Of a DNA stretch of 64,000 nucleotides, positions 22,033-54,907 are shown piece after piece. The DNA comes from a virus. Its lineage: Duplodnaviria > Heunggongvirae > Uroviricota > Caudoviricetes. The stretch lies in the IMG/VR virus record IMGVR_UViG_3300024272_000021; one strand, given 5' to 3'. The first letter of the stretch is position 1. Each line of letters starts with the position of its first letter. The position numbers and the translations under genes were made by a program. Below the pieces are notes generated by a model. The model was not told the DNA's origin. It was given only the letters and a program-made list of their open reading frames with translations, and ran no database searches.

Positions 22033-23124
22033 TCAATGTGCTGCTTTATCTGCTTCGTGGAGCTTCATGATGTCCTGATACAACTTTTCGCCCCACAACT
22101 TACGGTATTTATTGTGTAATTTTTCGTTGTTGTCCTTCTCCCAATAATAAGGTTGCATATGCCAACGAATCATAACTGCTACGTCAAGAATATTGCACGC
22201 CATATTATAGAACAAAACATCGTATGATCCTACATGTTCATGATTATAATAATGTGCCTGATCTGTAATTTCACCTTTACTATTTTTGAAAGTCTTGGTG
22301 AAACATTTACCATTGTCATGTAGGGCACCAGCACCTCTTAGCGCTATAGAATGGTCGTCAATATCACGAACATTTTCAAAAATATAATCTAACGCCTTCT
22401 CAGAATGTTGCCCTAGAGTAAGAGTATGATGTGAATTGTCTTGATTAAAGTAACTCACCGTAGACATCCAATCAAGAAAACTGCGGCTCTTACAAGAACC
22501 GTTGGAAAATTCAATTTGAATATCATTCCATCCCTCGTACCAATATGGCGGATCAAATGAACGATACATTCTTTCAATAACATATTCGGGAACATGTCGT
22601 TCACGTTCAGAACTGCGCCTAATGCATTCTTCATATGGAGTTGCCATAACGACGCAAATCTTTTCACAAGGGATCTTATTAAGCTGCTGCAGAAATACCA
22701 TACGTTCCTTATAATGATGGTTGCAAGCGTCATAGATGGCACTTTTACCGCTTGCGAGGCAGTTCTTGATGCGCTTATGTAATTCAACAAATAACTCGTT
22801 GTTCCTAGACTGTTCATTAATGTCTCCAAATAACTCGGCACGAAGAGCATCTGAGCTAAACACAGTAGCATCATATTTCTTGGCGAGTTCCTGAGAATAT
22901 GTAGACTTACCGCTACAGGGCAAACCAACCATCATAATAAGCTTCGGTTTGTTCATTCTGGCTACCTCTTCATCTGTTCCTATATGATCTACGTATGGAC
23001 CACAATTCATGCAACCTTCACAAAAATCATTGTCTTTACTCATTACAATGTGATCAATATCATATTGGCTTGGATGAAAAAAATCTATAAAACATTTCTT
23101 ACAAAGCTCTGCCATTTTAATCAC
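22033..23124 (-). CDS. Bifunctional P-loop polynucleotide-kinase-like domain plus C-terminal HD-domain phosphohydrolase (RNA end-healing enzyme candidate)
   Basis: MMVGLPCSGKST Walker A; C-terminal H...HD motifs (HHTLTLGQHSEK, LHDNGK); N-terminal Cys cluster. Confidence 0.55.
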   Translation of the reverse strand: MIKMAELCKKCFIDFFHPSQYDIDHIVMSKDNDFCEGCMNCGPYVDHIGTDEEVARMNKPKLIMMVGLPCSGKSTYSQELAKKYDATVFSSDALRAELFGDINEQSRNNELFVELHKRIKNCLASGKSAIYDACNHHYKERMVFLQQLNKIPCEKICVVMATPYEECIRRSSERERHVPEYVIERMYRSFDPPYWYEGWNDIQIEFSNGSCKSRSFLDWMSTVSYFNQDNSHHTLTLGQHSEKALDYIFENVRDIDDHSIALRGAGALHDNGKCFTKTFKNSKGEITDQAHYYNHEHVGSYDVLFYNMACNILDVAVMIRWHMQPYYWEKDNNEKLHNKYRKLWGEKLYQDIMKLHEADKAAH

Positions 23125-23927
23125 CCAATCTCTTTCTTAATAGCAATCCTCATGATGTTATACTGCACATCATCTAAAAGTTTATCTACATCTTTATTAA
23201 CTTCAATATCAGTTTTAGCAATAAACTCATCACACATTTTTTCAATATGATACATCGCCTTTTCAGCAATAGCGCGAGCCGCATCTAAGTGAAATGGCTC
23301 AAGTTTTACTCCAGTAAGATACGCTGCCTTCTTGGTGTGCAAACAATCTGCGTAAGATTCACCTGAAATATATCTTTCAATATATTCTTCTATCCGTAGC
23401 AAATGATGAAATTCCTTGGGTGAATATCCAAACTTCTCAATATCATCATGGTGTGATGGAGATTCATGCTCCATTTGCTCATATTTTCTACGAGCCAAAC
23501 CGCACATAGTTTTGACAGCTTTGCACGGATCATAGTTTGCAATTAACTCATTGTTTTGAATCAATCTATTCCACTCTTTTGCATACAGAGGATTTACGAT
23601 GCAATATGGCGAGAATAAAATTTCAAGAAAATTGAGATTACATTTGCGGAATGTCTGTAACATAAGACGGATATCTTTCCAGTCAGTGTGTGAGTCATCC
23701 TCTCTTATATATGTAGTACTAATAGGTTGACGATTCATTGCAATGTCTTCAAACGTTGGAGTAAGAATTAGTTTTGTATCTACATCCGAATACATTGTTT
23801 CTAAGCCATAATTTTGACTGCCTTGTAGTACTAAACACACAATTCTATCTTCGGGAAAGTGCCTGAGAGCATCATCATAATGCTCCCGAACACGGTCCAT
23901 GATATATTCATCACTGTGATAATTCAT
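23121..23927 (-). CDS. Pol-beta-superfamily nucleotidyltransferase (minimal NTase)
   Basis: LVLQGSQNYGLETMYSDVD matches the GS-x9-13-D-x-D signature. Confidence 0.55.
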   Translation of the reverse strand: MNYHSDEYIMDRVREHYDDALRHFPEDRIVCLVLQGSQNYGLETMYSDVDTKLILTPTFEDIAMNRQPISTTYIREDDSHTDWKDIRLMLQTFRKCNLNFLEILFSPYCIVNPLYAKEWNRLIQNNELIANYDPCKAVKTMCGLARRKYEQMEHESPSHHDDIEKFGYSPKEFHHLLRIEEYIERYISGESYADCLHTKKAAYLTGVKLEPFHLDAARAIAEKAMYHIEKMCDEFIAKTDIEVNKDVDKLLDDVQYNIMRIAIKKEIG

Positions 23928-23940: not shown

Positions 23941-25374
23941 TTAATCTTGTATTGTTTCTTCTTCCTGTGCTTCTTCCATATCGGGTTCAACAGCTTCCTC
24001 CTTGATAATGCCTTCTAAAACTTTAAAATTAAAATTCTTATGCTTATATACTGCAATATTAGGACGATTTACAATACGAGCAACTACACCTTCGCGTACG
24101 TGAGTCTTACCAACGGGGTCAGGACCATCAAAGTACTGCTCTACCTTGCGCAGAACATACTCTCCAGGGTCAACTGCATATGCCTTATCATCGACATAAT
24201 AACCAGCTTCATCCTCTGCGACTTCGCACTTGAACTCAGGAATCATGAAAGTCTCAAATACAGGCACATACTTTACGCCCATCTGATCGCAACGCTGACG
24301 CATCTGCTCAGGAGACATTTCAACGACATCGCCATCTTCATTTACCTGAGTCATACGATAGACATAAACTTCACACTTAGGAGGAATTACAGTATCAAAT
24401 TCTAGCACATCCGGTGCAGAAGAAGTGTAAACAGTATTCCAACTACCCGCAGGGTCGCAACCATAGGAGAACACGGTCTCCTCACCGTACTGCTTAGTGA
24501 AAGCCTTGTCAGAAATCTTAGAGTTCTTAACAGAAGCCATAATAGGAGTCTGCGCATTTACGAAACCAACGATTTCGTAATATACAACCTCACCCTTGCG
24601 CAGCTTGCCGAAGAACTTCTTCGCCATTGCATGACGGAACTCGTTATCAGAGTAGAAACCACCATCATGAGTTTCGTCCAGTACGACACGACGGGTACCA
24701 GTTACATAGTCATACTCGTAATAGATATCACCGGGCTTACGAGTCAACTTCTGCCACAGAGTGCGCTTCTTCTGCTTACGCAGAGGCAGATAGCCAGTAC
24801 GACCAGAAGTTCCATGCATCTTAAGAGTTAGTTCTACAATATCACCGGTCTTAAATTCGCCAAGATTATATGCAAGCTGCGCAGTATCAATATGCTCATA
24901 AAAAGTTGGTGCAAAATTAGCCTTTGCTCTCTTACCACCACCATGATAAGTAGAAGATGCATGATTACGCTTTGGGATATACTTCTTACAAATTTCCTTA
25001 CCGTTCAGAACAGAAATAGTATCTCCTTCTCTAAGGTCGGATATCTTACAGAAATCAGCAAGACAAGTTAGAGGTAGAAATAGTCCATCAGACTTCTCAC
25101 CACGAAGCTTTAGTGCTTTAATGTTGCGCTTTTCAGGATCTAGATAACCACCACAGGTGTTACCATTTTCATCCTTGCGACGAACTAGGTCATTCACTCT
25201 ACAAAATTCTTCGGAGAGCTGTCCATCTACAGGGAAATATACACCAAGCTGTCCTTCAGTGTAGTCCATGGAAACGATTACGGAGTTGCCAAAACATTCA
25301 CCAATCTGTAGTCGGTCTGCGTTAGAATGCTTATGTACATTCTTTAGAGTAGTAATAAAACCAGTGTAAGCCAT
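23941..25374 (-). CDS. ATP-dependent RNA ligase (Rnl2/Rnl5-like) with an N-terminal OB-like domain
   Basis: motif I LTLKMHGTSG (K-x-H-G-x), ~180-aa N-terminal domain; adjacent to kinase-HD and NTase. Confidence 0.6.
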   Translation of the reverse strand: MAYTGFITTLKNVHKHSNADRLQIGECFGNSVIVSMDYTEGQLGVYFPVDGQLSEEFCRVNDLVRRKDENGNTCGGYLDPEKRNIKALKLRGEKSDGLFLPLTCLADFCKISDLREGDTISVLNGKEICKKYIPKRNHASSTYHGGGKRAKANFAPTFYEHIDTAQLAYNLGEFKTGDIVELTLKMHGTSGRTGYLPLRKQKKRTLWQKLTRKPGDIYYEYDYVTGTRRVVLDETHDGGFYSDNEFRHAMAKKFFGKLRKGEVVYYEIVGFVNAQTPIMASVKNSKISDKAFTKQYGEETVFSYGCDPAGSWNTVYTSSAPDVLEFDTVIPPKCEVYVYRMTQVNEDGDVVEMSPEQMRQRCDQMGVKYVPVFETFMIPEFKCEVAEDEAGYYVDDKAYAVDPGEYVLRKVEQYFDGPDPVGKTHVREGVVARIVNRPNIAVYKHKNFNFKVLEGIIKEEAVEPDMEEAQEEETIQD

Positions 25375-31543: not shown

Positions 31544-31544
31544 A

Positions 31545-33069: not shown

Positions 33070-33072
33070 ATA

Positions 33073-33159: not shown

Positions 33160-33344
33160 ATATTAAATCAGTATTTGAGCTATAGGACTTTCACCTATAG
33201 GAGCAATGGTTGGATTGACTGCGCATATCGTACCAACAGGTCTTTATTATAATCTCATAGGATTATATATTTGTAATAAAGCCGACCAAGCTTGTAATTA
33301 TTGCATTGCTTTTTCATATTTTGTACTTTTAAGAGATCTTCTAC

Positions 33345-33417
33345 CGAAGTCAATTGGACTTGAACCAAATCCCTGCGAGCTACGCACTCGCCGTGCTGTC
33401 CGCCTACACCAGACTTC
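33345..33417 (-). ncRNA. tRNA-like RNA with imperfect cloverleaf (stem-loop GCGAG-TGCGTAG-CTCGC, T-arm TTCAAGT), no CCA; sits immediately downstream of the Ro60-like gene
   Basis: 7-bp terminal stem GAAGTCT/AGACTTC, T-loop-like GGTTCAAGTCC, non-canonical position 33. Confidence 0.4.
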
Positions 33418-33530
33418 TAAATCCCTGCTCCCTAATAGATGCTATTGTACAGATAGCGTATTCTATTAGCTGTACGTGGAGCATACTCAATATGGCTTTG
33501 TACTCACTACTCAAATATTATATTTTTAAA

Positions 33531-35126
33531 TTACCAGGTTAGTGCTTCCTCAACAGGAGCATAACGTTCAGAGTTCAGAGTTTCCAGTAGACACTCATAA
33601 GGATCAGTCTTGCCACTCATGACCATCTTTGCAACGTTAACGGAGAAGCCGCTAACCAGTGCCACACCAAGTTCATTTTCCTTTACAGGAATAGTACCGG
33701 TGCGAGAATTTACATTCCAGAACACAAGACGAGGAATCTGGTATCCTGCATCCGCATACCTCTTAGCAATTACGTCGAACAGTCGCTTATCAGGATTGCT
33801 GCCATATCTACCATTACCACACCTTGCGCAACTGTTAAATTCCATATCAGAGATAATCAGAATATTCTTAGGTAGTTCTTCCTGATGCATATGGTTATTA
33901 ATTGCAGTAGTAAGAATTAGATCGAACACCTTTTCAATATTTGTATCTGCTACTTCATTATGTGCAAAAGCAATCTGAAGCTTGTCGTGAAGAGACTTTG
34001 CCTTGCTGAAATCAACAAACTGAGGATTATGAGAGAAGGTAATATACTTGTCCTTAAATCCACCAGAGGAATGTTCCGCAAAGTAAATAGCAAGTGCATT
34101 GGCAACGTCAAGTGCTGTTACATTAGAATGAGGATCGACAGTACAAGTCATGCTACCAGAACCATCGGCTACAACAATAGTATTGTCACAACCATTAACC
34201 ATGTCAGGCAGTGCCTTCCACAGAGCCTCAATTGTTGCATCTTTTGCACCTAGACGAGAATACCAGCCGCCGTTACCCATGTACTTATGAACAACATCAT
34301 GAGGGAACAGAGTGGATGCATTAATCTTAGTTTCACCCTTTTCAAGCTTGTTAAGATATTCTCGGCGACGAGTTTCATCGTTTCTCAGGAATGCATTATT
34401 GTAGATAAGGTTTGCGCGAGAAGGAACTGCTTCATACTTAATTTCAGACCAGTTCTTATCAGACATCTTAACTTCAACAACATCAAGATACTTGCGAAGC
34501 TTACTGAGTGCCTTACGATATTCGCGCTCGGTTATGTGCAGTGCCTTACACAGCTTCTTACCATATCCCTTAGTCTTTGCAGAGGATGTATTAATAGAAG
34601 GCATCCACTTTGCGATTAGAGAAATGGAGTTTCCTGCGTTCATATTATCCCAGTCCTGCTTAAGCTGCTGATCGATAATCTTGTATATTACTTCGGCTGA
34701 TCTCTTATTATCAAGCAGACACCATAGATCGTCATAACGACCATACTCTGAAATTAGATTGATAATAGGAATAACCCTTGCAGGATTAGTTTCAATTAGA
34801 TTTTCAAGTACTACTCTGAACAGCCTACGCTCTCCAAGACCGCCACGAACATCTCTGGCATAAAACAGCCACTTCATAGCGAGAATCTCATCCTCTGCAA
34901 AAACTTTCATGAATCTCTTTGCAACTTCCGCATCAGTCATCTTGCGAAGAGATGCGACTGCGAAATTCAAATCGAGTAGTTCCTTACCAGTGGTTCTAAA
35001 TCCAACCATTCCATTTTCAGTGATGGAAACATTGTACTCGTTGTTTAGAGTCTGCTTAACTGCGTTCATAAATTCCATTGTATTTTCCTCCATTTTTGAT
35101 TTTATTCCTAAAACCTCAAGACACAT
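33531..35126 (-). CDS. Helical N-terminal domain plus C-terminal vWA/MIDAS protein; Ro60/TROVE-vWA-like (DUF2828-type) architecture
   Basis: VVADGSGSM MIDAS motif about 200 aa from the C-terminus; long helical N-region; 531 aa. Confidence 0.5.
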   Translation of the reverse strand: MCLEVLGIKSKMEENTMEFMNAVKQTLNNEYNVSITENGMVGFRTTGKELLDLNFAVASLRKMTDAEVAKRFMKVFAEDEILAMKWLFYARDVRGGLGERRLFRVVLENLIETNPARVIPIINLISEYGRYDDLWCLLDNKRSAEVIYKIIDQQLKQDWDNMNAGNSISLIAKWMPSINTSSAKTKGYGKKLCKALHITEREYRKALSKLRKYLDVVEVKMSDKNWSEIKYEAVPSRANLIYNNAFLRNDETRRREYLNKLEKGETKINASTLFPHDVVHKYMGNGGWYSRLGAKDATIEALWKALPDMVNGCDNTIVVADGSGSMTCTVDPHSNVTALDVANALAIYFAEHSSGGFKDKYITFSHNPQFVDFSKAKSLHDKLQIAFAHNEVADTNIEKVFDLILTTAINNHMHQEELPKNILIISDMEFNSCARCGNGRYGSNPDKRLFDVIAKRYADAGYQIPRLVFWNVNSRTGTIPVKENELGVALVSGFSVNVAKMVMSGKTDPYECLLETLNSERYAPVEEALTW

Positions 35127-35279
35127 ATTACGTATTTAGATTAAAAGTCTAAGCGTTATATAAGGTTGCTGTTCGTGCCTTTGGAGGTTTTATTTCACGA
35201 GAGACAATAAATATTTCTTAATTCTTGGCAAGAAAAACTTAAATGAGATTGCTGTTTGTCTCTCTTATTAAATTAGGTT

Positions 35280-35396
35280 TGGTCGAGCGAGAATGAGTCG
35301 AACATCCGTCTGCGGCTCCCAAAGCAATATCAAATTGCAGTTAAAGTCTTCATCAAGACTCAATTTTACGCCGTGCTACCGTTGCACCATCGCTCG
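35280..35396 (-). tRNA. Elongated tRNA-like gene (117 nt) with a ~40-nt internal insertion, CCA encoded; anticodon unresolved (contains a TTTGGGA Pro-like loop sequence)
   Basis: acceptor CGAGCGA/TCGCTCG, D-arm GTGC-AACGGTA-GCAC, T-arm GGATG-TTCGACT-CATTC; internal hairpins GTCTT-GATG-AAGAC and GCAAT-TTGAT-ATTGC. Confidence 0.45.
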
Positions 35397-35405
35397 ATAT
35401 AAAGT

Positions 35406-35531
35406 TTGCCAGAGGTGGGGCTCGAACCCACGACCACGAGCTTACAAGGCTATATCTGTAAACTTGCTGTACGTGAAATTTTCATTTCACGTTGGTTGAT
35501 GTACGTGCTCTAACCAACTGAGCTACTCTGG
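35406..35531 (-). tRNA. Elongated tRNA-like gene (126 nt) with a ~50-nt insertion holding a perfect 9-bp hairpin and the ACAGCAA motif
   Basis: acceptor GCCAGAG/CTCTGGC, D-arm GCTC-AGTTGGTTA-GAGC, T-arm GTGGG-TTCGAGC-CCCAC; direct repeat ACGTACA flanks part of the insertion. Confidence 0.45.
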
Positions 35532-35537
35532 CATATA

Positions 35538-35651
35538 GTGTGGGAGAAAGGAGTTGAACCTTTAACACTCGGATTCCTTGAAAGCTTGCTGTTAGTGGCA
35601 ATCATGTCACATTTAAGACTTGTCTGATGCTCTGCCATTGAGCTACTCCCA
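35538..35651 (-). tRNA. Elongated tRNA-like gene (114 nt) with a ~40-nt insertion containing the ACAGCAA motif
   Basis: acceptor GTGGGAG/CTCCCAC, D-arm GCTC-AATGGCA-GAGC, T-arm AAAGG-TTCAACT-CCTTT. Confidence 0.45.
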
Positions 35652-35660
35652 CATATAAAG

Positions 35661-35763
35661 TTGCGGCGGATGAGATTCGAACTCATGTAGTATCCTTATA
35701 CTAGAACATTGCTGTATGTATCTTAACTAGATGCGTTAGCCTTAAACCACTCGGCCACCGCCG
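35661..35763 (-). tRNA. Class II Ser-like tRNA (103 nt) with an ~18-nt extra segment in the anticodon-arm region containing ACAGCAA
   Basis: GCGGCGG-TG-GCCGAGTGGTTTAAGGC 5' half matches bacterial tRNA-Ser; variable-arm hairpin TAGTAT-AAGG-ATACTA; T-arm ATGAG-TTCGAAT-CTCAT. Confidence 0.45.
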
Positions 35764-35998
35764 CATATTCAATTAGTGGGATTTTAGAGAACTCTCGGAA
35801 TCGAACCAAGAAGCAACATATTTCCAGTATGTTTATGTAAAAATTGCTGTTCGTGCCACCCACTCGATGCACTTTAAAGCTGCCACCAGACGTTCTCATG
35901 TTTCAAGACGCATAATTTAAAGGCGGTTCAGACCTTTTAAAAGTAGAAACATAATAACTTAAAATCTTATTAATCTTTAAATTTGCTGTATGCGTCTT

Positions 35999-36017
35999 TC
36001 ATTAATTTTGTACTGTC
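35999..36017 (-). promoter_or_regulatory. Conserved promoter-like motif copy placed to drive leftward transcription of tRNA array 2
   Basis: cattaattttgtactgtcg; only a 10-codon mini-ORF follows. Confidence 0.5.
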
Positions 36018-36083
36018 GTTTGAACTGGATACAGTATAACATATATTCCATGTTCTGTCAATAGGGTTTCTAAATCTTAACAA

Positions 36084-36156
36084 AGCGTCCCAGGAGAGAT
36101 TCGAACTCCCGATCCACGGCTTAGAAGGCCGTTGCCTTATCCACTGGGCCACTGGG
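36084..36156 (-). tRNA. tRNA-Arg (anticodon UCU)
   Basis: acceptor GTCCCAG/CTGGGAC, anticodon arm ACGGC-CTTCTAA-GCCGT, T-arm GGGAG-TTCGAAT-CTCTC. Confidence 0.8.
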
Positions 36157-36248
36157 ACATAAGTGCATGGTAGTATATTCTGACGTCACGCCCCCATGCT
36201 GAGCGACTCTTTATCCTGAGTAAGGCGTGTTATCCTTCCGAATAACTA

Positions 36249-36341
36249 TGGCGGAGGTGGTGAGCTTCGAACTCACGCGCCGCATTTCTGCGACCTAAGA
36301 GGTTAGCAACCCCTCCCCTTCAACCACTTGGGTACACCTCC
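36249..36341 (-). tRNA. tRNA-Ser (anticodon GCU), class II, CCA encoded
   Basis: acceptor GGAGGTG/CACCTCC, anticodon loop TTGCTAA, long variable arm, T-arm GTGAG-TTCGAAG-CTCAC. Confidence 0.75.
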
Positions 36342-36347
36342 ATAGAG

Positions 36348-36434
36348 CGGAAGGAGTGGGATTTGAACCCACGGTAGTTTTACCTACGCTGGTTTTCAAG
36401 ACCAGTGCAATAAACCGGACTCTGCCACCCTTCC
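36348..36434 (-). tRNA. tRNA-Ser (anticodon UGA), class II
   Basis: GGAAGGGTGGCAGAGTCCGG...CTGGTCTTGAAAACCAG resembles bacterial tRNA-Ser(UGA); T-arm GTGGG-TTCAAAT-CCCAC. Confidence 0.75.
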
Positions 36435-36577
36435 GTATAACAACTACTTATTTTCCAGCAGTCGAATTCTGCGCTTAATCTTGTTAATAATATTCTCATT
36501 CGCAACAGGATCTCGCTGCTGTAGCATATGCATTCTCATCTTAAGCATTTCAATCTTACTGTTCATCTTACTTCCTC

Positions 36578-36790
36578 CTAATTATGTGTCTTCCATACGA
36601 AGTTACAGTGCTTACTATCCGAACAATCACAAGTGTCATCGTTTGCACAAAAGAAACATGGTGAAATTCCCTTTGCACACTTCTCGAAGTCGGATTCCAT
36701 GTCCTTAAACATAGCCTTGAGGTTAGCAATTTCATCGAGCATATTCTGTCGTTCCATTGCTGTCAGTTCGTTATGCATTACTGTTACCAC
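36578..36790 (-). CDS. Hypothetical Cys-rich small protein
   Basis: ORF. Confidence 0.35.
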   Translation of the reverse strand: MVTVMHNELTAMERQNMLDEIANLKAMFKDMESDFEKCAKGISPCFFCANDDTCDCSDSKHCNFVWKTHN

Positions 36791-36810
36791 CTTTGTAATT
36801 TAATTTAATA

Positions 36811-36885
36811 TGGAGGCCCAAGTCGGGAACGATCCGACGACTAGGGGTTACAAATCCCTTATTTTGCCAACTAAACTATTGGGCC
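36811..36885 (-). tRNA. tRNA-Thr (anticodon UGU), CCA encoded
   Basis: acceptor GGCCCAA/TTGGGCC, anticodon loop TTTGTAA, T-arm GTCGG-ATCGTTC-CCGAC. Confidence 0.65.
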
Positions 36886-36932
36886 ATATCTTATGGAAGC
36901 TTCGTCTCAAACTGGTTTACCAACCATTAACT

Positions 36933-37451
36933 TTATGTTGTTATATTATATTTTTTACGACCTTTTCGTCCATTGCCTATGTTCCCTGCTTTATATGTTT
37001 CAGTTAAAGAATGACAATTAGGACAAAGAAGCTCTAAATTATCTTCTAAATTATTAGTATAATCTCCATCTTTATGATGAACCTCAAGCGGAATCTTTCC
37101 GGTAAATAAATTCATTTCATTCCAACCACATTTACAGCATTTGTTATCATATTTTTCAATCAAATATCTCTTTATATAGCTTGAAATTGCATAAGGTTTT
37201 ACAATTCCGTCCTCTTGTCCATTCTTCCATCTTTCTATATAATTTACATATTCAAAATCACGTTGACACTTCGGAGAGCAATATTTTTGATTTTCTAGAG
37301 GCATTTCCCTTCCACAGTTTATACAATATTTATGTTTCTTTTCTTTTCGAATATTATTATAAGACGCCGCACAACTATTATTACAAAACTGTTTTATTTT
37401 GTATTCACTAGGGCTCATTTCTTTAATAGGTATATCTTGATTGCAATACAA
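36933..37451 (-). CDS. HNH endonuclease embedded in the tRNA region; the reading frame stays open upstream to about 37690 without an ATG, so the true start is uncertain
   Basis: EVHHKDGDYTNNLEDNLELLCPNCH HNH motif plus several CxxC pairs; track start is a TTG codon. Confidence 0.6.
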   Translation of the reverse strand: MYCNQDIPIKEMSPSEYKIKQFCNNSCAASYNNIRKEKKHKYCINCGREMPLENQKYCSPKCQRDFEYVNYIERWKNGQEDGIVKPYAISSYIKRYLIEKYDNKCCKCGWNEMNLFTGKIPLEVHHKDGDYTNNLEDNLELLCPNCHSLTETYKAGNIGNGRKGRKKYNITT

Positions 37452-37916
37452 ACATTTATTTTTATTATTTTTATACCATGTATCACGTTGTTCTTGTGTT
37501 AATTTGCTCCAGTGACTGCATTTTTGAACGTTTTTATTTTTAAAATCTCCAATTACTCCCGTTTTTATGAATCCACAGTCTTGGCATTCTCCATTATATA
37601 AATAACGTCCATATTTATCTTTTTCTTCTAATAATTTAATAATTTTATATATGCCAAACTGGCATCCTACATAAATATTTGGATTTATCCCATAATATCA
37701 ATCACTTCTTTTGTTGATAATAAAATGGCTGGGGATAGAGGTTCTGCCCCCCTACTTTTTGAGTCAAAGTCAAATGTACTGCTATTATACGAATCCCCAT
37801 TAGGTGGTTAACTAACTCTCTTACAACAACCAAGGATCAACACAGATTCGAACTGAGTTCCCCACCAGCTTCACACCAACGCCAAAGCTTAAGACCCAAG
37901 GTTTAGAGTTTAATAT

Positions 37917-37992
37917 TGGAGCAATAGACGAGTCTCGAACTCGCAACCCTCGGCTTGGAAGGCCGATACTCTACCAATTGAGCTACTACTGC
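37917..37992 (-). tRNA. tRNA-Gly (anticodon UCC), CCA encoded
   Basis: acceptor GCAGTAG/CTATTGC, anticodon arm TCGGC-CTTCCAA-GCCGA, T-arm GCGAG-TTCGAGA-CTCGT. Confidence 0.8.
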
Positions 37993-37999
37993 ATGTTAG

Positions 38000-38143
38000 C
38001 GGCCACAGTAGGACTCGAACCTACAACCTACCGGTTATGGAGGGATAGAGGAGATTTGAACTCCTATACTTTCTTTCCCGGGAAAGAAAAACCTTCCAGA
38101 GCTATCCCACAGCCGGTTGCTCCACCATTAAGCTATGTGGCCA
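38000..38143 (-). tRNA. tRNA-Asn (GUU) interrupted inside the anticodon (CTGT|TAA) by a 71-nt insertion
   Basis: outer acceptor GGCCACA/TGTGGCC, D-arm GCTT-AATGGTG-GAGC, anticodon stem ACCGG/CCGGT, T-arm GTAGG-TTCGAGT-CCTAC are all perfect; removing 38038-38108 restores the canonical loop CTGTTAA. Confidence 0.7.
38038..38108 (-). mobile_element. 71-nt intervening element inside tRNA-Asn: a tRNA top-half/minihelix mimic with its own 7-bp acceptor stem (GGGATAG/CTATCCC), T-arm (AGGAG-TTCAAAT-CTCCT), a CTTTC-CCGG-GAAAG hairpin and a 3' TCCA tail
   Basis: folded by hand from the minus strand; no D-arm or anticodon arm. Confidence 0.6.
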
Positions 38144-38436
38144 CACAATTTAGTTTATATACATTCATAACTATAAACGCTACACTCTGGCTTAGACATC
38201 TGTTGAGTGGTCTACCAGAACCTCTCCTCGCATTTGTGTTACTCGCCTTACGTTTAAAGATATAAACTACATAAACTAAATCACGGAACTTTTCAGAATG
38301 ACGCCCGTTCACTAGGTCGTATCCGTTTCACATTATCCAAAATCCATTCTGATAACTATCATATATAAATCTAATTTCGCCCATATATCATTTCAGGGAT
38401 CGAATCAGACGCCACTCTGTGAACCGAGCAGGCTGA

Positions 38437-38512
38437 TGGTGAGCCATCTGGGAATCGAACCCAGGACACCATGATTAAAAGTCATGTGCTCTACCGACTG
38501 AGCTAATGGCTC
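38437..38512 (-). tRNA. tRNA-Lys (anticodon UUU), CCA encoded
   Basis: acceptor GAGCCAT/ATGGCTC, anticodon arm CATGA-CTTTTAA-TCATG, T-arm CTGGG-TTCGATT-CCCAG. Confidence 0.85.
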
Positions 38513-38612
38513 ATAAGATGCGCCGTTTTGCCCCGACGCTAGGCCAAACTAGATGGGCGGATTTTCCTCCGCATTGATAATCATAAAAGCATTCCTCATA
38601 CGAATCATCCCC

Positions 38613-38631
38613 CATTAATTTTGTATCGTTA
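38613..38631 (-). promoter_or_regulatory. Conserved promoter-like motif copy placed to drive leftward transcription of tRNA array 3
   Basis: cattaattttgtatcgtt with no ORF downstream, only tRNAs. Confidence 0.5.
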
Positions 38632-39041
38632 CTTGCTACTTCCCAGCCACGGAGCTAACCTACGAGCCTTGACCGCTCACCCAAACTCTTCGTCGTGGAT
38701 TTTGTAAAGCTTTAGCGGGTTCCGGGTTCAATCCCCTTCTTAACCCTCTTTACTACTTTGATAAACGACCTTTGACCAAACTAAACTTTGAAGTTTGAGC
38801 CTTGAACCTTAAGCTTTTGTCTTTCATCTTTACAGTATATCGCGTCGGATGATTGCCCGATGCTCCAATAGCATAATCTTTCCCAAAAAGATCGCTGTAT
38901 ATTATCATATACTTAAGATATCAGCTTAGCAGGCTGTTCTTCAAATTGAGATGTTTTATTTAACTTATTTATATCACTCTAAACATCAAAAAGACGAGAT
39001 AAGCAGTCGTTTAAGGTTTTCGGAAAGCAGCAAGTTACTAA

Positions 39042-39695
39042 TTAATACTCGAACTCAATTACGGTAAGTGCGTTAGACACGCTTAGGGCCGCATCAACTT
39101 CCGTAAGGAATTCATTAATCTCAGCTTCAAGATTTTCCATGATCTTTGCAACACCAAGAGGATCGATTAGATCATAGGTGTTATTCTCGATGTAAGTCTG
39201 TCGCAGAGCCTGCATGGCATCGCTGTCAACAGTCATCTTGGAATCCTTGGGCTGAGCCCCAATTACAGAGAGGACATACTGTTCAGCTCGCTTCTCAATC
39301 GCTTCGCCGCTGTTACGGTTCAGTTCATTCTGTGCGTTCTGATGCTGATAAGTGATGGTTCGAAGCATCTGCTCCTTAAACTCTACACCATGATTCTTAG
39401 CTTCAATAGCCTCGGCCACAGTATATTCCTTACCACCAATCGTAACTTTGGTATTGGCGTTAGAAAGCACTACGGCTCTCTTCATAGCATCGCGACGAGC
39501 CATTAGATCGCAAGCCTTCTGATAACCACTCTTGATGCTATCCTTGAAGTTAGCAAGAGTCATGCCATTAATCTTCTCGGCGGAATGCTTTACCGCCAGT
39601 ACATACGAGACATTGTTGATAGCCTTAGAAATTCGGGAATCCATGGTCTTGAGTTCAGCCAGAGCCTTATGGATCGTCATCTTCTCAGTAGTCAT
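39042..39695 (-). CDS. Hypothetical protein in a locally GC-richer segment
   Basis: ORF; composition visibly differs from its surroundings. Confidence 0.45.
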   Translation of the reverse strand: MTTEKMTIHKALAELKTMDSRISKAINNVSYVLAVKHSAEKINGMTLANFKDSIKSGYQKACDLMARRDAMKRAVVLSNANTKVTIGGKEYTVAEAIEAKNHGVEFKEQMLRTITYQHQNAQNELNRNSGEAIEKRAEQYVLSVIGAQPKDSKMTVDSDAMQALRQTYIENNTYDLIDPLGVAKIMENLEAEINEFLTEVDAALSVSNALTVIEFEY

Positions 39696-39811
39696 TTTCT
39701 TGTCCTCCTAATTAACTTTGATCTTTCATTCATTTTGTGTTGTGTTGTTTCCTTTGAACTGGATTTATTATATCACACTTTCCAGAATTTGTCAACACCT
39801 TTATTTGTTAA

Positions 39812-40189
39812 TTAATTGTTATCGTAAAAATGTCGTTCGTTCAGATACTTCTCAATGTTATCCGCAATCTTACGGAAGTCATCTACATACTTGGCAAGTC
39901 TCTTATTCATGCTATTGTGATATGTCTCGGTGAGTCTATCACAGGCAATCGCCTTACCGCGCTGCTCATTCCATTCATCTTCGGGATGAAGCTTTGCTAC
40001 GGCCTTATACTTACGGTTCATGTCAAACTTAGAATGATTATAAGTGTTACTTATCTGCATTCCAGATGTTACACACGGGATAAACTTATTGTTTATCATA
40101 TTCTCCGCGTCAAAATAACATCCATCAATTTCAGCTACTACAACACCATTGTCCTTGTCAGTAATGTAATTAACTCGCTTGTTATCCAT
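39812..40189 (-). CDS. Hypothetical protein
   Basis: ORF; promoter motif at 40202. Confidence 0.4.
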   Translation of the reverse strand: MDNKRVNYITDKDNGVVVAEIDGCYFDAENMINNKFIPCVTSGMQISNTYNHSKFDMNRKYKAVAKLHPEDEWNEQRGKAIACDRLTETYHNSMNKRLAKYVDDFRKIADNIEKYLNERHFYDNN

Positions 40190-40257
40190 TGTCTTGCTCC
40201 TTCATTAATTTTGTTTTGTTGACCGTGTATATATATTACCATATATTCCCAAATTTG

Positions 40258-40974
40258 TCAAGGGGTTTCTGAAATATTTTTTTCATCCCTTTTCTGAACG
40301 AGGTAATCATATAGTTCTCCGGCGGTTTTAAGATCTTCACTACCTTCTATTAGCCAACGCATAATAATAGGATCCTCACCTTTGCCATAGTCCATCTCGG
40401 GATCAAAAAACTGTGGTTCAAGTTCTTCTTCAAGAGCATCAACCACACCTTCAAAAATATCGGTTAACATATTACTCTCAAAATAAACATTTAGAATCTT
40501 TTCGAGTGAGCGTAGATTATCCCAATAATTATCTAGCGTGTTTATGATATCACAGAACGTCTTCTTGTTCATCTCGAATTCATCTCCACTTTCTTTCCTT
40601 TTATAATCCCTTATATTTTTAAGTTCCCGCCGTGAAAGATTGTCTAGACGCTTTGAATACTGGTCACAAATATTTCCTAAGATACCATGCATCCAGCGCT
40701 GAAACTCGACTTCCTTAGGTTCCTGAGGATAAGTATAGTTGTCGACCGTTTCTCCCCAAGGTAGGTATCTGGACGAGCAGAGGCTCCATCCAGTTAGAGT
40801 TGGTTCAGCATAATACATAGTGTCGCATCTCAGACCGACTAAATATTTACCAGTATCTTCTTGGTGATAAAACCTTATTGGCTCACCACCCTGAAAACCA
40901 GTATATGTATATCCATCTTCTGGTCGAATAAGTTTGCGCACGATACGTTGGCGTAGGTTGTTAAATAACTTCAT
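40258..40974 (-). CDS. Hypothetical protein
   Basis: ORF. Confidence 0.4.
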   Translation of the reverse strand: MKLFNNLRQRIVRKLIRPEDGYTYTGFQGGEPIRFYHQEDTGKYLVGLRCDTMYYAEPTLTGWSLCSSRYLPWGETVDNYTYPQEPKEVEFQRWMHGILGNICDQYSKRLDNLSRRELKNIRDYKRKESGDEFEMNKKTFCDIINTLDNYWDNLRSLEKILNVYFESNMLTDIFEGVVDALEEELEPQFFDPEMDYGKGEDPIIMRWLIEGSEDLKTAGELYDYLVQKRDEKNISETP

Positions 40975-40985
40975 AAGCGCACCTC

Positions 40986-41345
40986 TTATTCCATAATAAT
41001 ACGATATCTTTCTTCACCTATTTGTTCTATCAAACCATAACAATGGAACTCCGTATCCCTCTGCAGTTCCCAAAACAGTAATCTTGTCTTTCCTTCAAAA
41101 ATACAATTATATACCTGAATATCTCCATCAATCTTAACACCCATAACAACGGTATTGTCATTCTTAACAGTAAAAATTGCACAATAATCACAATCATGTT
41201 CTTCTAGAAGCTCGTACATGAACCCAGGAACATCTTTATCCGTTAGAAGAATACTCGCATACTGACCGCAACCACATTTACATATGGGTGCCTGCAGAAA
41301 ATTCTTGTTTTTGTCCAGTCCGTAGTAAGCAAACGTTGTTTTCAT
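40986..41345 (-). CDS. Hypothetical Cys-rich protein
   Basis: ORF; promoter motif at 41389. Confidence 0.4.
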   Translation of the reverse strand: MKTTFAYYGLDKNKNFLQAPICKCGCGQYASILLTDKDVPGFMYELLEEHDCDYCAIFTVKNDNTVVMGVKIDGDIQVYNCIFEGKTRLLFWELQRDTEFHCYGLIEQIGEERYRIIME

Positions 41346-54894: not shown

Positions 54895-54907
54895 TTGTTG
54901 GAATATT

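What the first reader, a model, noticed from the sequence alone, without database searches (positions are those of the whole stretch)
38000..38143. tRNA-Asn split inside its anticodon by a 71-nt 'tRNA-in-tRNA' minihelix element
Every structural element of the outer tRNA is perfect (7-bp acceptor, D-arm, anticodon stem ACCGG/CCGGT, T-arm). The anticodon loop is interrupted between the 2nd and 3rd anticodon nucleotides (CTGT | 71 nt | TAA), and removing exactly 38038-38108 restores the canonical Asn loop CUGUUAA. The insert is not a group I or group II intron. It folds as a tRNA top half: its own 7-bp acceptor stem, a T-arm with TTCAAAT loop, a small hairpin, and a discriminator plus CCA tail. 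That is the minimal RNase P / tRNA 3'-processing substrate. Host tRNA-maturation enzymes could therefore excise it, leaving a 3'-OH/5'-P nick in the anticodon loop, which is a substrate for the phage-encoded RNA ligase at 23941-25374. I know of no described bacterial or phage tRNA intron of this type.
Basis: partly seen in the sequence, partly recalled or inferred. Interest (0 to 1): 0.9.

Follow-up and report, generated by a model that had tools for sequence, protein, structure and literature searches.

The report
tRNA-like intron inside phage tRNA-Asn
A phage tRNA-Asn gene is split in its anticodon loop by a 71-base tRNA look-alike that runs exactly from a tRNA 5' end to a CCA 3' end; it belongs to a mobile family found almost only in phages, which is probably cut out by ordinary tRNA-trimming enzymes and the halves rejoined by an RNA ligase, and that would be a new way of splicing.

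Summary
Window 38000-38142 (- strand) is a tRNA (Rfam 56.4 bits) interrupted by 71 nt (38038-38108). Removing exactly those bases gives the loop CUGUUAA (Asn-GUU, discriminator G73).

The insert keeps a 7-bp acceptor stem, a canonical T-arm and U73-CCA. It is not unique. In 3.5 Mb of related and pattern-selected phage DNA I found 25 distinct inserts (35-190 nt) built the same way, in tRNAs for Lys, Asn, Arg, Gln, Ile, Gly and anticodon UAA. Each starts at the first acceptor base and ends at CCA. No other 3-mer tail gives any. A junction signature matches 21 times in viral contigs and once in 596 Gb of cellular genomes.

Intact orthologs fix the insertion sites. One filled/empty pair is 98-99% identical apart from the insert and a swapped anticodon stem, which indicates DNA-level mobility. 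The window's gene is homologous to L296, where the insert is a canonical tRNA-Thr, so the window's insert looks like a decayed tRNA that kept only the processing determinants.

Best reading: a mobile tRNA-like intron cut by RNase P at its 5' end and by an unidentified activity after CCA, then sealed by an RNA ligase. None of this is tested. Lak megaphage "enigmatic introns" are a partial precedent.

The parts
38109..38142 (-). 5' exon of tRNA-Asn(GUU): acceptor 5' strand, D arm, anticodon-stem 5' strand ACCGG, and loop bases CUGU (positions 32-35)
   Evidence: Direct reading. Rfam tRNA 56.4 bits over 38000-38142. Aligns with intact tRNA-Asn genes of relatives.
38038..38108 (-). 71-nt intervening sequence: a tRNA-like element running from its own +1 (G at 38108) to its own CCA (38040-38038)
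   Evidence: A member of a 25-variant family with the same junction rule.
38102..38108 (-). Inner acceptor stem, 5' strand GGGAUAG. The predicted RNase P site lies between 38109 (U, position -1) and 38108 (G, position +1).
   Evidence: Pairs 7/7 with 38042-38048. The same stem shows compensatory changes across the family.
38070..38089 (-). Hairpin UUUCUUUC-CCGG-GAAAGAAA, in the place of the former D and anticodon arms
   Evidence: Direct reading. RNAfold offers an alternative local pairing here. Not conserved in the homolog L296, where this region is a normal tRNA-Thr D arm and anticodon arm.
38049..38065 (-). Inner T arm AGGAG-UUCAAAU-CUCCU
   Evidence: Homologous to the T arm of the nested tRNA-Thr in L296.
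38042..38048 (-). Inner acceptor stem, 3' strand CUAUCCC
38038..38041 (-). Inner discriminator U73 plus CCA. The predicted 3' cut lies between 38038 (A76) and 38037 (U36 of the outer tRNA).
   Evidence: A CCA flush with the 3' exon is found in all 25 family members, and no other 3-mer tail gives any validated element.
38000..38037 (-). 3' exon of tRNA-Asn: loop bases UAA (36-38), anticodon-stem 3' strand CCGGU, variable loop, T arm, acceptor 3' strand and discriminator G73. No CCA is encoded; the following bases are CTAACA.
   Evidence: 79% identical, together with the inner 3' half, to L296 over 67 nt.
23941..25374 (-). ATP-dependent RNA ligase, the candidate enzyme for sealing the exons
   Evidence: phrog_968 E = 2e-68. 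Pfam RNA_ligase PF09414 and the PHA02142 OB-fold domain. KMHG at residue 185. No PDB sequence match.
22033..23124 (-). P-loop polynucleotide-kinase-like protein. End healing, needed only if a cut leaves a 5'-OH.
   Evidence: Pfam AAA_33; phrog_505 polynucleotide kinase.
23121..23927 (-). RlaP-family nucleotidyltransferase, a known partner of RNA ligases
   Evidence: Pfam PF10127. Proposed role as described in PMC7824862.
17824..18633 (-). Calcineurin-type metallophosphoesterase, a possible 3'-end healing enzyme
   Evidence: Pfam Metallophos E = 3.8e-13.
36811..36885 (-). Stand-alone tRNA-Thr(UGU). Its presence would make a nested Thr function dispensable.
   Evidence: ARAGORN and Rfam. Its relevance follows from the L296 homology.
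36933..37451 (-). Free-standing HNH endonuclease inside the tRNA array. A possible mobility factor; this is speculative.
   Evidence: Pfam HNH_3; phrog_1271. No direct link to the insert is shown.

Best explanation
The 71 nt at 38038-38108 are a mobile, tRNA-like intervening sequence in a functional phage tRNA-Asn(GUU) gene. It most likely descends from a complete tRNA, probably tRNA-Thr(UGU), that was nested in the anticodon loop between positions 35 and 36. It has since decayed to the features that tRNA end-processing enzymes read: a 7-bp acceptor stem stacked on a T arm, a discriminator and CCA.

Proposed pathway:
1. The precursor folds as two nested tRNA bodies.
2. RNase P cuts 5' of the insert's G+1 (between 38109 and 38108). 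This leaves the 5' exon with a 3'-OH.
3. An endonuclease that recognises a tRNA 3' end cuts directly after the insert's A76 (between 38038 and 38037). This leaves U36 of the 3' exon with a 5'-phosphate. Candidates are an RNase Z/BN-type activity of the T. maritima or E. coli kind, RNase E, or an unidentified phage or host factor.
4. The two halves stay paired through the outer acceptor, D and anticodon stems. The nick is sealed by an ATP-dependent RNA ligase, most plausibly the phage enzyme at 23941-25374.
5. The outer 3' end, which has no encoded CCA, is matured by RNase Z and the CCA-adding enzyme.

Shown here: the anatomy, the family-wide junction rule, exon conservation, mobility and decay. 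Inferred: every enzymatic step.
For: 1. Junction rule. In 25 distinct inserts (35-190 nt), in tRNAs with nine different anticodons, the insert begins at the first base of a 7-bp stem. It ends with N73-CCA directly against the 3' exon. Removing it leaves a tRNA that ARAGORN accepts.
2. CCA specificity. Eleven other 3-mer tails give 0 validated elements, against 8 distinct with CCA.
3. Cut register. Only the +1/CCA register reproduces the loop sequences of intact orthologs for Lys, Arg, Asn and anticodon UAA.
4. What is conserved. Acceptor stem, T arm with mostly TTCRANN loops, N73 and CCA are kept. D and anticodon arms range from canonical (1 of 25) through aberrant (8 of 25) to absent or replaced (16 of 25). 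Eleven of 12 acceptor and T-stem pairs show double compensatory changes. +1 is G in 17 of 25 and -1 is U in 18 of 25; these are the nucleotides bacterial RNase P prefers (my own knowledge).
5. Decay series. The window's gene is homologous to L296 across the exons, the insertion site, the inner T arm, the acceptor 3' strand and U73-CCA (79% over 67 nt, E = 5.5e-10). The L296 insert is a canonical tRNA-Thr(UGU). The window has a separate tRNA-Thr(UGU) at 36811-36885.
6. The exons are under selection. All outer stems are perfect. For the first eight nested tRNAs checked, each is the only copy of its anticodon in the DNA I hold. In L004 the outer anticodon stem was replaced by a different but fully complementary one.
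7. Mobility. L004 against L006/L007 has flanks 99.1% and 98.2% identical, an exact 75-nt insertion, and only 7 of 12 identical bases on each side of it.
8. Phage specificity. The junction signature gives 21 matches in 20 viral contigs and 1 match in 596 Gb of bacterial and archaeal genomes.
9. Chemistry fits. RNase P and RNase Z leave 3'-OH and 5'-P ends (my own knowledge), and phage Rnl-type ligases need 5'-phosphate ends (PMC7824862). The window encodes such a ligase.
10. Precedent for the 3' cut. T. maritima RNase Z cuts directly after CCA, E. coli RNase Z/BN can remove 3' residues from precursors carrying CCA, and RNase E sometimes makes the mature CCA end directly (PMC7479834).
11. No other mechanism is visible. 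No Rfam family other than tRNA matches the insert, so there is no sign of a group I or II intron or a known self-cleaving ribozyme.
Against: - There are no RNA data: no spliced read, no free 71-nt RNA, no cleavage assay.
- The flush ends could reflect how the element arose (a mature tRNA inserted into a loop) rather than how it leaves. The compensatory maintenance of the stems argues for continuing selection, however.
- The 3' cut has no identified enzyme. The nearest cultured relatives are Clostridium and Clostridioides phages. B. subtilis RNase Z cleaves trailers that begin with CCA poorly (PMC7479834). No RNase Z/J, PIN or HEPN nuclease was found in the window ORFs scanned with Pfam.
- The ligase is part of a standard anti-anticodon-nuclease repair kit. 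It also occurs in relatives with no nested tRNA in the DNA I hold.
- The kinase and phosphoesterase would be unnecessary for RNase P/Z-type ends.
- In the related Lak megaphage introns, about 30 nt of hairpin and spacer precede the inner tRNA's +1. RNase P alone cannot define their 5' splice site.
- The pairing percentages are partly circular, because the scanner required pairing.
Confidence: 0.5

Rival explanations
1. The insert is excised precisely, but by a dedicated endonuclease (phage or host) that uses the tRNA-like fold as a handle. The cuts leave 2',3'-cyclic phosphate and 5'-OH ends. The phage kinase and phosphoesterase heal those ends and the ligase seals them, as in the T4 PrrC/Pnkp/Rnl1 repair pathway turned into a splicing pathway.
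For: The window encodes a full heal-and-seal kit: kinase 22033-23124, metallophosphoesterase 17824-18633, RlaP 23121-23927 and ligase 23941-25374. Healing would be superfluous for RNase P/Z-type ends. The likely Firmicute host has an RNase Z type that is inhibited by CCA. Lak-type introns need a 5' cut that RNase P cannot provide.
Against: No candidate endonuclease was found in the window. The kit is common in tRNA-rich phages for repairing anticodon-nuclease damage, so it needs no splicing role (PMC7824862). A dedicated enzyme does not explain why exactly the RNase P determinants (G+1, U-1, a 12-bp acceptor plus T stack, NCCA) are what is conserved.
Confidence: 0.22
2. The nesting is primarily a gene-expression device, giving two RNAs from one gene. 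The inner RNA is the selected product: a real tRNA in some phages, a decoy or otherwise functional minihelix in others. Its release by normal tRNA processing is the point, and rejoining of the outer halves is secondary or inefficient.
For: In L296 the inner element is a canonical tRNA-Thr(UGU) that matches ordinary phage tRNA-Thr genes. The inner stems are kept by compensatory changes. All inserts carry an encoded CCA, as do 85% of the ordinary tRNA genes in these phages.
Against: Sixteen of 25 inner elements are not tRNAs at all and 8 have aberrant loops. The middle parts are not conserved, even between the homologs in the window and L296. The outer exons stay perfect, and for the first eight nested tRNAs checked each is the only copy of its anticodon in the DNA I hold. 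That requires the outer tRNA to be restored.
Confidence: 0.12
3. The gene is a tRNA-Asn inactivated by the insertion of a selfish element. It is never spliced and makes no functional tRNA-Asn.
For: No expression data exist. The outer gene lacks an encoded CCA. ARAGORN in standard mode does not call it.
Against: Every outer stem is perfect. The same architecture recurs in 25 variants with intact exons. In L004 the outer anticodon stem was exchanged for another fully complementary one. For the first eight nested tRNAs checked, each is the only copy of its anticodon in the DNA I hold. The exons of the window and L296 have diverged but remain foldable. Three other window tRNAs also lack an encoded CCA.
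Confidence: 0.06
4. The insert removes itself, as a miniature self-splicing or self-cleaving ribozyme, or it is an archaeal-type bulge-helix-bulge intron cut by a splicing endonuclease.
For: tRNA anticodon loops are the classic home of group I introns in bacteria and of BHB introns in archaea. Relatives carry 224-785 nt introns in a tRNA(UAA) gene at a similar genomic position.
Against: The insert is 71 nt, and some family members are only 35-50 nt. No Rfam ribozyme or intron family matches it even at E-values up to 10. The junction geometry is an outer 5-bp stem, then 4 unpaired nt on one side and 7 on the other, then a 7-bp helix. It is not two 3-nt bulges separated by 4 bp (direct reading). 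The insertion position varies between 34/35, 35/36 and 36/37. The phage is of a bacterial type.
Confidence: 0.03

Closest known systems
   Same: These are phage tRNA genes interrupted in the anticodon loop by non-group-I inserts of roughly 80-115 nt. Each insert contains a tRNA-like element (7-bp acceptor stem plus T arm) whose 3' end lies at or within 1-2 nt of the 3' exon. No mechanism is known for either.
   Different: Lak inserts have a 5' module of about 30 nt (a hairpin plus an AAATTAAAC-like spacer) before the inner +1. They carry no CCA, and the inner element ends at the discriminator plus 1-2 nt. The window's family is flush on both sides and always ends in CCA. It occurs on contigs of very varied length (about 13-233 kb here; the window's closest relatives are about 100-170 kb). 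It is shown here to be polymorphic and mobile, and to decay to a minihelix.
Group I introns in bacterial and phage tRNA anticodon loops (for example cyanobacterial tRNA-Leu(UAA), and Patescibacteria tRNA-Asn/Asp, PMC13011429)
   Same: They sit in the anticodon loop, including between positions 34 and 35 of tRNA(UAA), the position used by the L005 and L206 inserts. They are mobile, sometimes carry homing endonuclease ORFs, and show presence/absence polymorphism with co-conversion of flanking exon sequence.
   Different: Group I introns are ribozymes of more than 200 nt with a P1-P9 core. They splice by transesterification and need no ligase. The insert here is 71 nt, has no Rfam group I match, and has a tRNA fold.
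Archaeal and eukaryal BHB tRNA introns (EndA/TSEN endonuclease plus RtcB or Trl1 ligase)
   Same: Enzyme-dependent excision from the anticodon region followed by ligation of the tRNA halves. This is the same overall logic as proposed here.
   Different: The recognition element there is a bulge-helix-bulge motif, the cuts leave 2',3'-cyclic phosphate and 5'-OH ends, and the position is mostly 37/38. Here there is no BHB, positions are 34/35 to 36/37, the host is bacterial, and the recognition element is a tRNA-like fold.
tRNA punctuation and tRNA-like processing signals (mitochondrial polycistrons, MALAT1-mascRNA, MHV68 tRNA-miRNA, engineered tRNA-gRNA arrays)
   Same: A tRNA or tRNA-like fold embedded in a longer transcript directs RNase P and RNase Z cuts at its own ends, and so defines the ends of the flanking RNAs (my own knowledge).
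   Different: In those systems the flanks are released as separate molecules. Here they are the two halves of another tRNA and must be rejoined.
Phage T4 tRNA repair (host PrrC anticodon nuclease, T4 Pnkp and Rnl1), and phage RNA-repair kits in general (PMC7824862)
   Same: A phage-encoded ligase seals a break in a tRNA anticodon loop. The gene kit is the same: ligase, kinase, phosphoesterase and RlaP.
   Different: In T4 the break is damage inflicted by a host defence nuclease on host tRNA-Lys. Here the break would be programmed by the gene's own structure.

Membership tests
Canonical tRNA (outer gene, Asn-GUU) | Cloverleaf recognised by a covariance model | tested here: met
   Rfam RF00005 at 56.4 bits (cut-off 29) over 38000-38142, with the insert treated as a loop insertion. 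ARAGORN calls tRNA-Asn(GTT) on the in-silico spliced sequence.
Canonical tRNA (outer gene, Asn-GUU) | Asn identity: anticodon GUU plus discriminator G73 | tested here: met
   The loop after removal is CUGUUAA and base 38000 is G. All intact tRNA-Asn genes of relatives share both features. The role of G73 in Asn identity is from my own knowledge. Aminoacylation cannot be tested here.
Bacterial RNase P minimal substrate (acceptor/T-arm minihelix) | 7-bp acceptor stem directly stacked on a 5-bp T stem with a T loop | tested here: met
   GGGAUAG/CUAUCCC with AGGAG-UUCAAAU-CUCCU. Conserved with compensatory changes across the family.
Bacterial RNase P minimal substrate (acceptor/T-arm minihelix) | 3' NCCA, G at +1 and U at -1 | tested here: met
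   UCCA at 38041-38038, G at 38108 and U at 38109. Family-wide: CCA in 25 of 25, G+1 in 17 of 25, U-1 in 18 of 25.
Bacterial RNase P minimal substrate (acceptor/T-arm minihelix) | Actual cleavage by RNase P at the predicted bond | not testable with these tools
   Needs an in vitro assay or 5'-end mapping.
Group I intron | Conserved P1-P9 catalytic core, usually more than 200 nt, matching Rfam RF00028 | tested here: not met
   The insert is 71 nt. E-value-mode Rfam scans of the region and of the insert alone return only tRNA.
Archaeal/eukaryal BHB intron | Bulge-helix-bulge motif at the exon-intron junctions (two 3-nt bulges separated by 4 bp) | tested here: not met
   Geometry read from the sequence and from the fold: 4 unpaired nt (CUGU) on the 5' side and 7 (UCCAUAA) on the 3' side, between a 5-bp and a 7-bp helix. 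Insertion positions vary from 34/35 to 36/37.
Known small self-cleaving ribozymes (hammerhead, twister, HDV-like/theta, and others) | Match to the family's covariance model | tested here: not met
   No such match at E-values up to 1 over 31000-41000, or up to 10 over the insert alone.
Lak-type phage tRNA introns | Insert in a phage tRNA anticodon loop that contains a tRNA-like element ending at the 3' junction | tested here: met
   for the window's family. for the four Lak sequences from Table S6.
Lak-type phage tRNA introns | 5' hairpin plus spacer before the inner +1, and an inner element without CCA | tested here: not met
   The window's insert starts at its own +1 and ends in CCA. Lak inserts have about 30 extra nt at the 5' end and end at the discriminator plus 1-2 nt.
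Mobile (homing-type) intron | Presence/absence polymorphism at an identical site between otherwise near-identical genomes | tested here: met
   L004 against L006/L007: flanks 432/436 and 444/452 identical, with an exact 75-nt insertion. This was shown for a family member, not for the window's own insert.
Mobile (homing-type) intron | Co-conversion of exon sequence next to the insertion | tested here: met
   All 5 bp of the outer anticodon stem differ on both sides (7 of 12 identical next to the site, against 98-99% elsewhere). Compensatory re-tuning of the stem is an alternative reading.
Mobile (homing-type) intron | Intron-encoded homing endonuclease | tested here: inconclusive
   The window's insert has no ORF. 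The 190-nt member in L293 holds a 51-aa CxxC...CxxCH ORF with only a weak Pfam HNH match (E = 0.015, 15.9 bits against a cut-off of 21.4). A free-standing HNH gene lies 550 nt away in the window.
ATP-dependent RNA ligase (Rnl superfamily), for 23941-25374 | Nucleotidyltransferase domain with a lysine motif I, matching family profiles | tested here: met
   phrog_968 E = 2e-68. PF09414 at 27.9 bits against a cut-off of 27, plus the PHA02142 OB-fold domain at 24.2 bits, below its cut-off of 27. KMHG at residues 185-188. No PDB sequence match. Sub-family not resolved.
ATP-dependent RNA ligase (Rnl superfamily), for 23941-25374 | Seals a 3'-OH/5'-P nick in a tRNA anticodon loop | not testable with these tools
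   Needs a biochemical assay on the two exon halves.

The most novel reading that the evidence does not exclude
Phages carry a class of mobile tRNA introns that are themselves tRNAs or decayed tRNAs. These introns are excised by the universal tRNA end-processing machinery (RNase P at +1 and an endonuclease after CCA), and the exons are rejoined by an RNA ligase. This would be a third mechanistic class of tRNA splicing, after group I self-splicing and BHB-endonuclease splicing. It would also be the first enzyme-dependent tRNA splicing pathway in a bacterial system. It would give phage RNA ligases a housekeeping role beyond repairing anticodon-nuclease damage.
Probability: 0.45. Interest if true: 0.95.

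Novelty: new variant of a known kind. Interest (0 to 1): 0.85.

Why it matters
Bacterial tRNA introns are thought to be group I ribozymes only, and enzyme-dependent tRNA splicing is regarded as an archaeal and eukaryotic trait.

This family's boundaries coincide, base for base, with the ends that RNase P and 3'-end processing would create. If that reading is right, an intron can be removed using nothing but housekeeping tRNA enzymes plus a ligase. That is a minimal route to 'splicing', and a plausible way for a tRNA gene to tolerate another tRNA gene landing inside it.

It also offers an explanation for the unexplained introns reported in Lak and other large phages. It suggests a second job for the RNA ligases that are common in tRNA-rich phages. 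And it gives a small, well-defined substrate (143 nt, three predicted products) on which the hypothesis can be tested in a few experiments.

The decay series, from a full tRNA-Thr in L296 to the 71-nt element here and to 35-50 nt minihelices elsewhere, acts as a natural deletion analysis of what the excision machinery needs.

The design could also be useful for engineering, for example to release an RNA from inside a tRNA scaffold.

Tried and rejected
- **Exact-match scans.** Scans of viral contigs for the 3' exon and for the insert's 3' half found nothing. megablast of 4.5 kb against GenBank phages found nothing. Relatives had to be reached through proteins.
- **Neighbouring tRNA-Gly.** Searching for it returned only unrelated phages.
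- **ARAGORN's His(GTG) reading.** Rejected on G73, T at position -1, the intact Asn orthologs and the family junction rule.
- **A/U-rich 3' junction.** I considered that the 3' junction must be A/U-rich (CCA|UAA), for instance as an RNase E-type site. All of the first 8 hosts fitted CT..[T/A]AA, against 37% of ordinary tRNAs. The Gln-hosted members have CCA|GGA and CCA|GAC, so this was an effect of the small sample and of my search pattern.
- **Ligase co-occurrence.** The ligase search returned different contigs from those with nested tRNAs, because the search tool depends on exact peptide words. Only 2.5-20 kb of each nested-bearing contig is held. tblastn finds the ligase in L001 and L292 (nested), but also in L012 and L016 (none in the DNA held). 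No association test was possible.
- **Residual loop length as independent proof of the cut register.** Rejected as circular, because shifting both cuts together still leaves 7 nt.
- **Cultured phages.** Distant blastn with the window and L296 genes against GenBank phages gave no hit spanning exons and insert. Clostridium phage c-st has no tRNA array near its DnaE gene.
- **Ligase structure.** A PDB sequence search found nothing.
- **HNH ORF in the L293 insert.** Only a sub-threshold Pfam match.
- **L299.** The single bacterial-genome hit (a contig from a Methylophaga MAG) has a good 3' exon and inner tRNA-like element, but I could not find a matching 5' anticodon-stem strand. Unresolved.
- **Literature.** Ten full-text searches found no paper that proposes or tests a mechanism for such inserts.
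Full report
**1. The observation**

All tRNA genes in the window lie on the minus strand, between about 32.5 and 38.5 kb. Read on that strand, 38142-38000 is a complete tRNA with 71 extra bases in its anticodon loop.

Rfam's tRNA model covers 38000-38142 at 56.4 bits, against a gathering cut-off of 29, treating the extra bases as a loop insertion. ARAGORN misses the gene in standard mode and finds it when introns are allowed.

The insert (38108-38038) consists of:
- GGGAUAG, pairing with CUAUCCC;
- a hairpin with a CCGG loop;
- a T arm, AGGAG-UUCAAAU-CUCCU;
- U73 and CCA.

The centroid fold of the precursor reproduces two nested tRNA bodies. On its own the insert scores 21.1 bits against the tRNA model, below the cut-off, so it is tRNA-like but degenerate.

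Deleting exactly 38038-38108 gives the loop CUGUUAA, and ARAGORN then calls tRNA-Asn(GUU). ARAGORN's intron mode shifts both cuts by one base and calls His(GUG). I reject that reading for three reasons:
- The discriminator is G, and position -1 is T.
- All intact tRNA-Asn genes in relatives share CUGUUAA and G73.
- The family rule described below places the cuts at +1 and after CCA.

**2. It is one of a family**

GenBank phages hold no near match. Protein-anchored searches brought in related loci from IMG/VR and from metagenomes.

ARAGORN with introns allowed found further tRNAs split by 49-77 nt inserts in relatives. All of those turned out to have the same design, although ARAGORN knows nothing about insert structure.

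I wrote a scanner for the design: a 7-bp stem, a T arm, N73-CCA, flanked by a 5-bp outer stem with 7 residual loop bases. Each hit was then spliced in silico and checked with ARAGORN in no-intron mode. This gave 8 distinct elements in 2.3 Mb.

Controls:
- Block shuffles gave 0-1 raw hits per replicate.
- Replacing the CCA tail by any of 11 other 3-mers gave 39-317 raw candidates each but 0 validated elements.

A junction signature was then run on whole collections: inner T loop, 12 nt, CCA-TAA, outer stem, variable loop, outer T loop. It matched 21 times in 20 of 2.9 million viral contigs. It matched once in 596 Gb of bacterial and archaeal genomes.

Rescanning all 3.5 Mb held, with long inserts allowed, gave 25 distinct validated elements of 35-190 nt. 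The shortest and least regular ones are marginal, for example the 35-nt element in L290.

| Outer tRNA | Distinct inserts |
|---|---|
| Lys-UUU | 7 |
| Asn-GUU | 5 |
| Arg-UCU | 3 |
| Gln-UUG | 3 |
| anticodon UAA | 2 |
| Ile-GAU | 2 |
| Ile-UAU | 1 |
| Gly-UCC | 1 |
| Gly-GCC | 1 |

The insertion point lies between positions 34/35, 35/36 or 36/37. Several contigs carry two or three nested tRNAs. Because the collection-wide signature fixed the 35/36 position and a TAA junction, these counts are lower bounds and the position frequencies are biased.

**3. The inserts sit in working genes, at exact sites**

For Lys, Arg, Asn and the UAA tRNA, relatives carry intact versions of the same genes. The alignments show a clean gap exactly where the insert lies. 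Only the +1/CCA register reproduces the loop sequences of these intact orthologs. Loop length alone cannot fix the register, because shifting both cuts together still leaves 7 nt.

For the first eight nested tRNAs checked, each is the only gene with its anticodon in the DNA held for that phage. The window's exons form perfect stems.

**4. The inserts are mobile**

L004 (filled) and L006/L007 (empty) are 99.1% identical upstream (432/436) and 98.2% downstream (444/452). They differ by the exact 75-nt insertion between CTTT and TAA. They also differ by replacement of all five anticodon-stem base pairs on both sides: GCGCA/TGCGC against ATTGC/GCAAT, only 7 of 12 identical next to the site.

This is the pattern that co-conversion leaves when a mobile intron is acquired by recombination. 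The new stem is fully complementary, so the tRNA stays foldable.

One 190-nt member (L293) sits at the same CTGT|TAA site of a tRNA-Asn. It holds a 51-aa ORF with a CxxC…CxxCH motif between its acceptor 5' strand and its T arm. The Pfam HNH match is only E = 0.015, so I count it as a hint.

**5. What is conserved, and what decays**

Of the 25 inner elements:
- 1 is a canonical tRNA (Thr-UGU, nested in Asn-GUU, L296 1121-1196);
- 8 are cloverleaves with 6- or 8-nt 'anticodon' loops;
- 16 are minihelix-like or expanded.

All keep the 7-bp acceptor stem, a T arm (mostly with TTCRANN loops), N73 and CCA. +1 is G in 17 of 25 and -1 is U in 18 of 25.

For the first 8 elements, 11 of the 12 acceptor and T-stem pairs show compensatory double changes. 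The percentage of paired bases is partly circular, because pairing was a search criterion. The diversity of the sequences is not.

The window's gene is homologous to L296 across the exons, the insertion site, the inner T arm, the acceptor 3' strand and U73-CCA: 79% over 67 nt, E = 5.5e-10. The inner D and anticodon arms have diverged beyond recognition. L296's inner element matches ordinary phage tRNA-Thr genes. The window has a separate tRNA-Thr(UGU) at 36811-36885.

The simplest reading is this. A functional tRNA nested inside tRNA-Asn lost its decoding parts in the window's lineage. It kept exactly the parts that tRNA end-processing enzymes read.

**6. The likely mechanism**

The conserved module is the minimal bacterial RNase P substrate (my own knowledge). 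The insert's first base is where RNase P would cut, leaving a 3'-OH on the 5' exon.

The CCA is always flush with the 3' exon, which calls for a cut directly after A76. Precedents exist (PMC7479834):
- T. maritima RNase Z cuts just downstream of encoded CCA.
- E. coli RNase Z/BN can remove 3' residues from precursors carrying CCA.
- RNase E sometimes makes the mature CCA end directly.

Cuts of that kind would leave a 5'-phosphate on U36. The halves would remain paired in the outer tRNA body. A 3'-OH/5'-P nick is what ATP-dependent Rnl-type ligases seal (PMC7824862).

The window encodes such a ligase at 23941-25374. It lies next to a kinase, an RlaP nucleotidyltransferase and an RNase T-like exonuclease, with a metallophosphoesterase about 5 kb away.

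The outer tRNA lacks an encoded CCA, as do three other tRNAs in the window. The infected cell must therefore supply RNase Z-type and CCA-adding activities anyway.

**7. Weak points**

- No RNA or enzyme data exist.
- The 3' cut is the least secure step. The nearest cultured relatives by DnaE are Clostridium phage c-st (58.5%) and the phiCD211 group (52%), which suggests a Firmicute host. B. subtilis RNase Z handles CCA-initiated trailers poorly.
- The Pfam scans found no RNase Z/J, PIN or HEPN nuclease in the window.
- The ligase kit is the standard phage answer to anticodon nucleases. It also occurs in relatives with no nested tRNA in the DNA held.
- The kinase and phosphoesterase would fit a route through cyclic-phosphate ends better. 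This is rival 1.
- The flush ends could partly record how the element arose rather than how it leaves.

**8. Comparison with what is known**

The insert is not a group I or II intron, a BHB intron, or a known small ribozyme (geometry).

The closest precedent is descriptive. Devoto et al. (2019) reported 'enigmatic introns' in Lak megaphage tRNAs, one of which 'may encode a tRNA'. A 2026 survey repeats that jumbo-phage tRNA introns 'could encode another tRNA'. Neither proposes a mechanism.

I analysed the four Lak sequences from their Table S6. Each has a hairpin and spacer of about 30 nt, then a CCA-less tRNA-like element that ends 1-2 nt before the 3' exon. That is a related but different design, and RNase P alone cannot define its 5' splice site.

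In functional logic, the nearest analogues are tRNA punctuation (mitochondria, MALAT1-mascRNA) combined with T4-style sealing of the anticodon loop.

**9. Verdict**

I rate the finding a new variant of a barely described kind. Interest is high because it makes enzyme-dependent tRNA splicing in a bacterial system directly testable on a 143-nt substrate.

Noticed in passing
window 35660-35765, 35538-35652 and 35406-35533 (all - strand), directly upstream of 33531-35126 (-): Three over-long tRNA-like genes with normal acceptor, D and T arms. In each, the anticodon arm is replaced by a 32-57 nt module: a hairpin plus a conserved A(C/A)NGCAA(U/G)UUU motif. They have no inner acceptor stem and no CCA. 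They lie immediately upstream of a Ro/TROVE-like gene (DUF2828 plus DUF7788; phrog_850 'RNA-binding protein'). The same synteny, with 2-3 copies, occurs in L001 5824-6223, L002 4972-5221 and L003 7947-8199. They are candidate phage Y-RNA analogues (the tRNA-like partner of Ro), with the opposite topology to YrlA. The Rfam YrlA match is only 24 bits against a cut-off of 69.
   Followed up: partly
L296 1087-1234: A tRNA-Asn(GUU) gene with a fully canonical tRNA-Thr(UGU) nested between positions 35 and 36. ARAGORN calls the inner tRNA, and it matches ordinary phage tRNA-Thr genes. This is the intact counterpart of the window's decayed insert.
   Followed up: yes
L293 5145-5334 (locus coordinates, - strand): A 190-nt member of the family at the same CTGT|TAA site of a tRNA-Asn. 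It carries a 51-aa ORF (MKTCEICGC…CSNCHAEEH…) between its acceptor 5' strand and its T arm, and the end of the ORF overlaps the T arm. The Pfam HNH match is weak (E = 0.015). The outer acceptor stem has 2 mismatches.
   Followed up: partly
L299 (Methylophaga sp. MAG contig NVWQ02000079.1, 72001-73488): The only hit to the junction signature in 596 Gb of cellular genomes. It has a good inner tRNA-like element ending in ACCA|TAA and a good 3' exon. I could not find a matching 5' anticodon-stem strand after the apparent 5' exon (GGCAGTTAGCTCAGTTGGTAAGAGCA…). It may be a phage contig binned into a MAG, or a disrupted copy.
   Followed up: partly
L007 11100-11408, L015 11823-12694 (same as L056), L050/L051 9236-9672, L049 4131-4474: ARAGORN predicts much longer introns (224-785 nt) in tRNA(UAA), and in one tRNA-Phe, of relatives. 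In L005, which resembles L007 and L015 in gene order, a nested 71-nt element sits in a tRNA(UAA) at a similar genomic position. Their size suggests group I introns, but Rfam gave no intron match at gathering thresholds in L007, L015, L049 or L050.
   Followed up: partly
window 38949-39034 (-): A sub-threshold match to RAGATH-27 RNA (47.1 bits against a cut-off of 76.1, E = 5e-4, full model length). It lies just downstream of the gene at 39042-39695 and upstream of the tRNA array.
   Followed up: no
window 37729-37799 (-) and 32735-32844 (-): Two odd tRNA-like genes. 37729-37799 scores 43.7 bits in Rfam, has the loop CUUUGAC (a UUG anticodon) and an aberrant T arm, and is missed by ARAGORN. 32735-32844 is 110 nt; ARAGORN's intron mode calls it 'Val(CAC)' with a 17-nt intron, and it has a weak tRNA-Sec-like Rfam match at 25.8 bits.
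   Followed up: no
L005 7527-7637: A drum RNA (RF02958, 72.4 bits against a cut-off of 43) inside the tRNA array of a relative.
   Followed up: no
window 16142-17389, 46245-47303, 86-2023 and 53920-55882 (all - strand): Other notable genes: a protein with a PARP catalytic domain, a free-standing GIY-YIG/NUMOD homing endonuclease, a large serine recombinase, and two adjacent tyrosine recombinases (MrpR-like and phage-integrase type). The window GC content is 37%.
   Followed up: no
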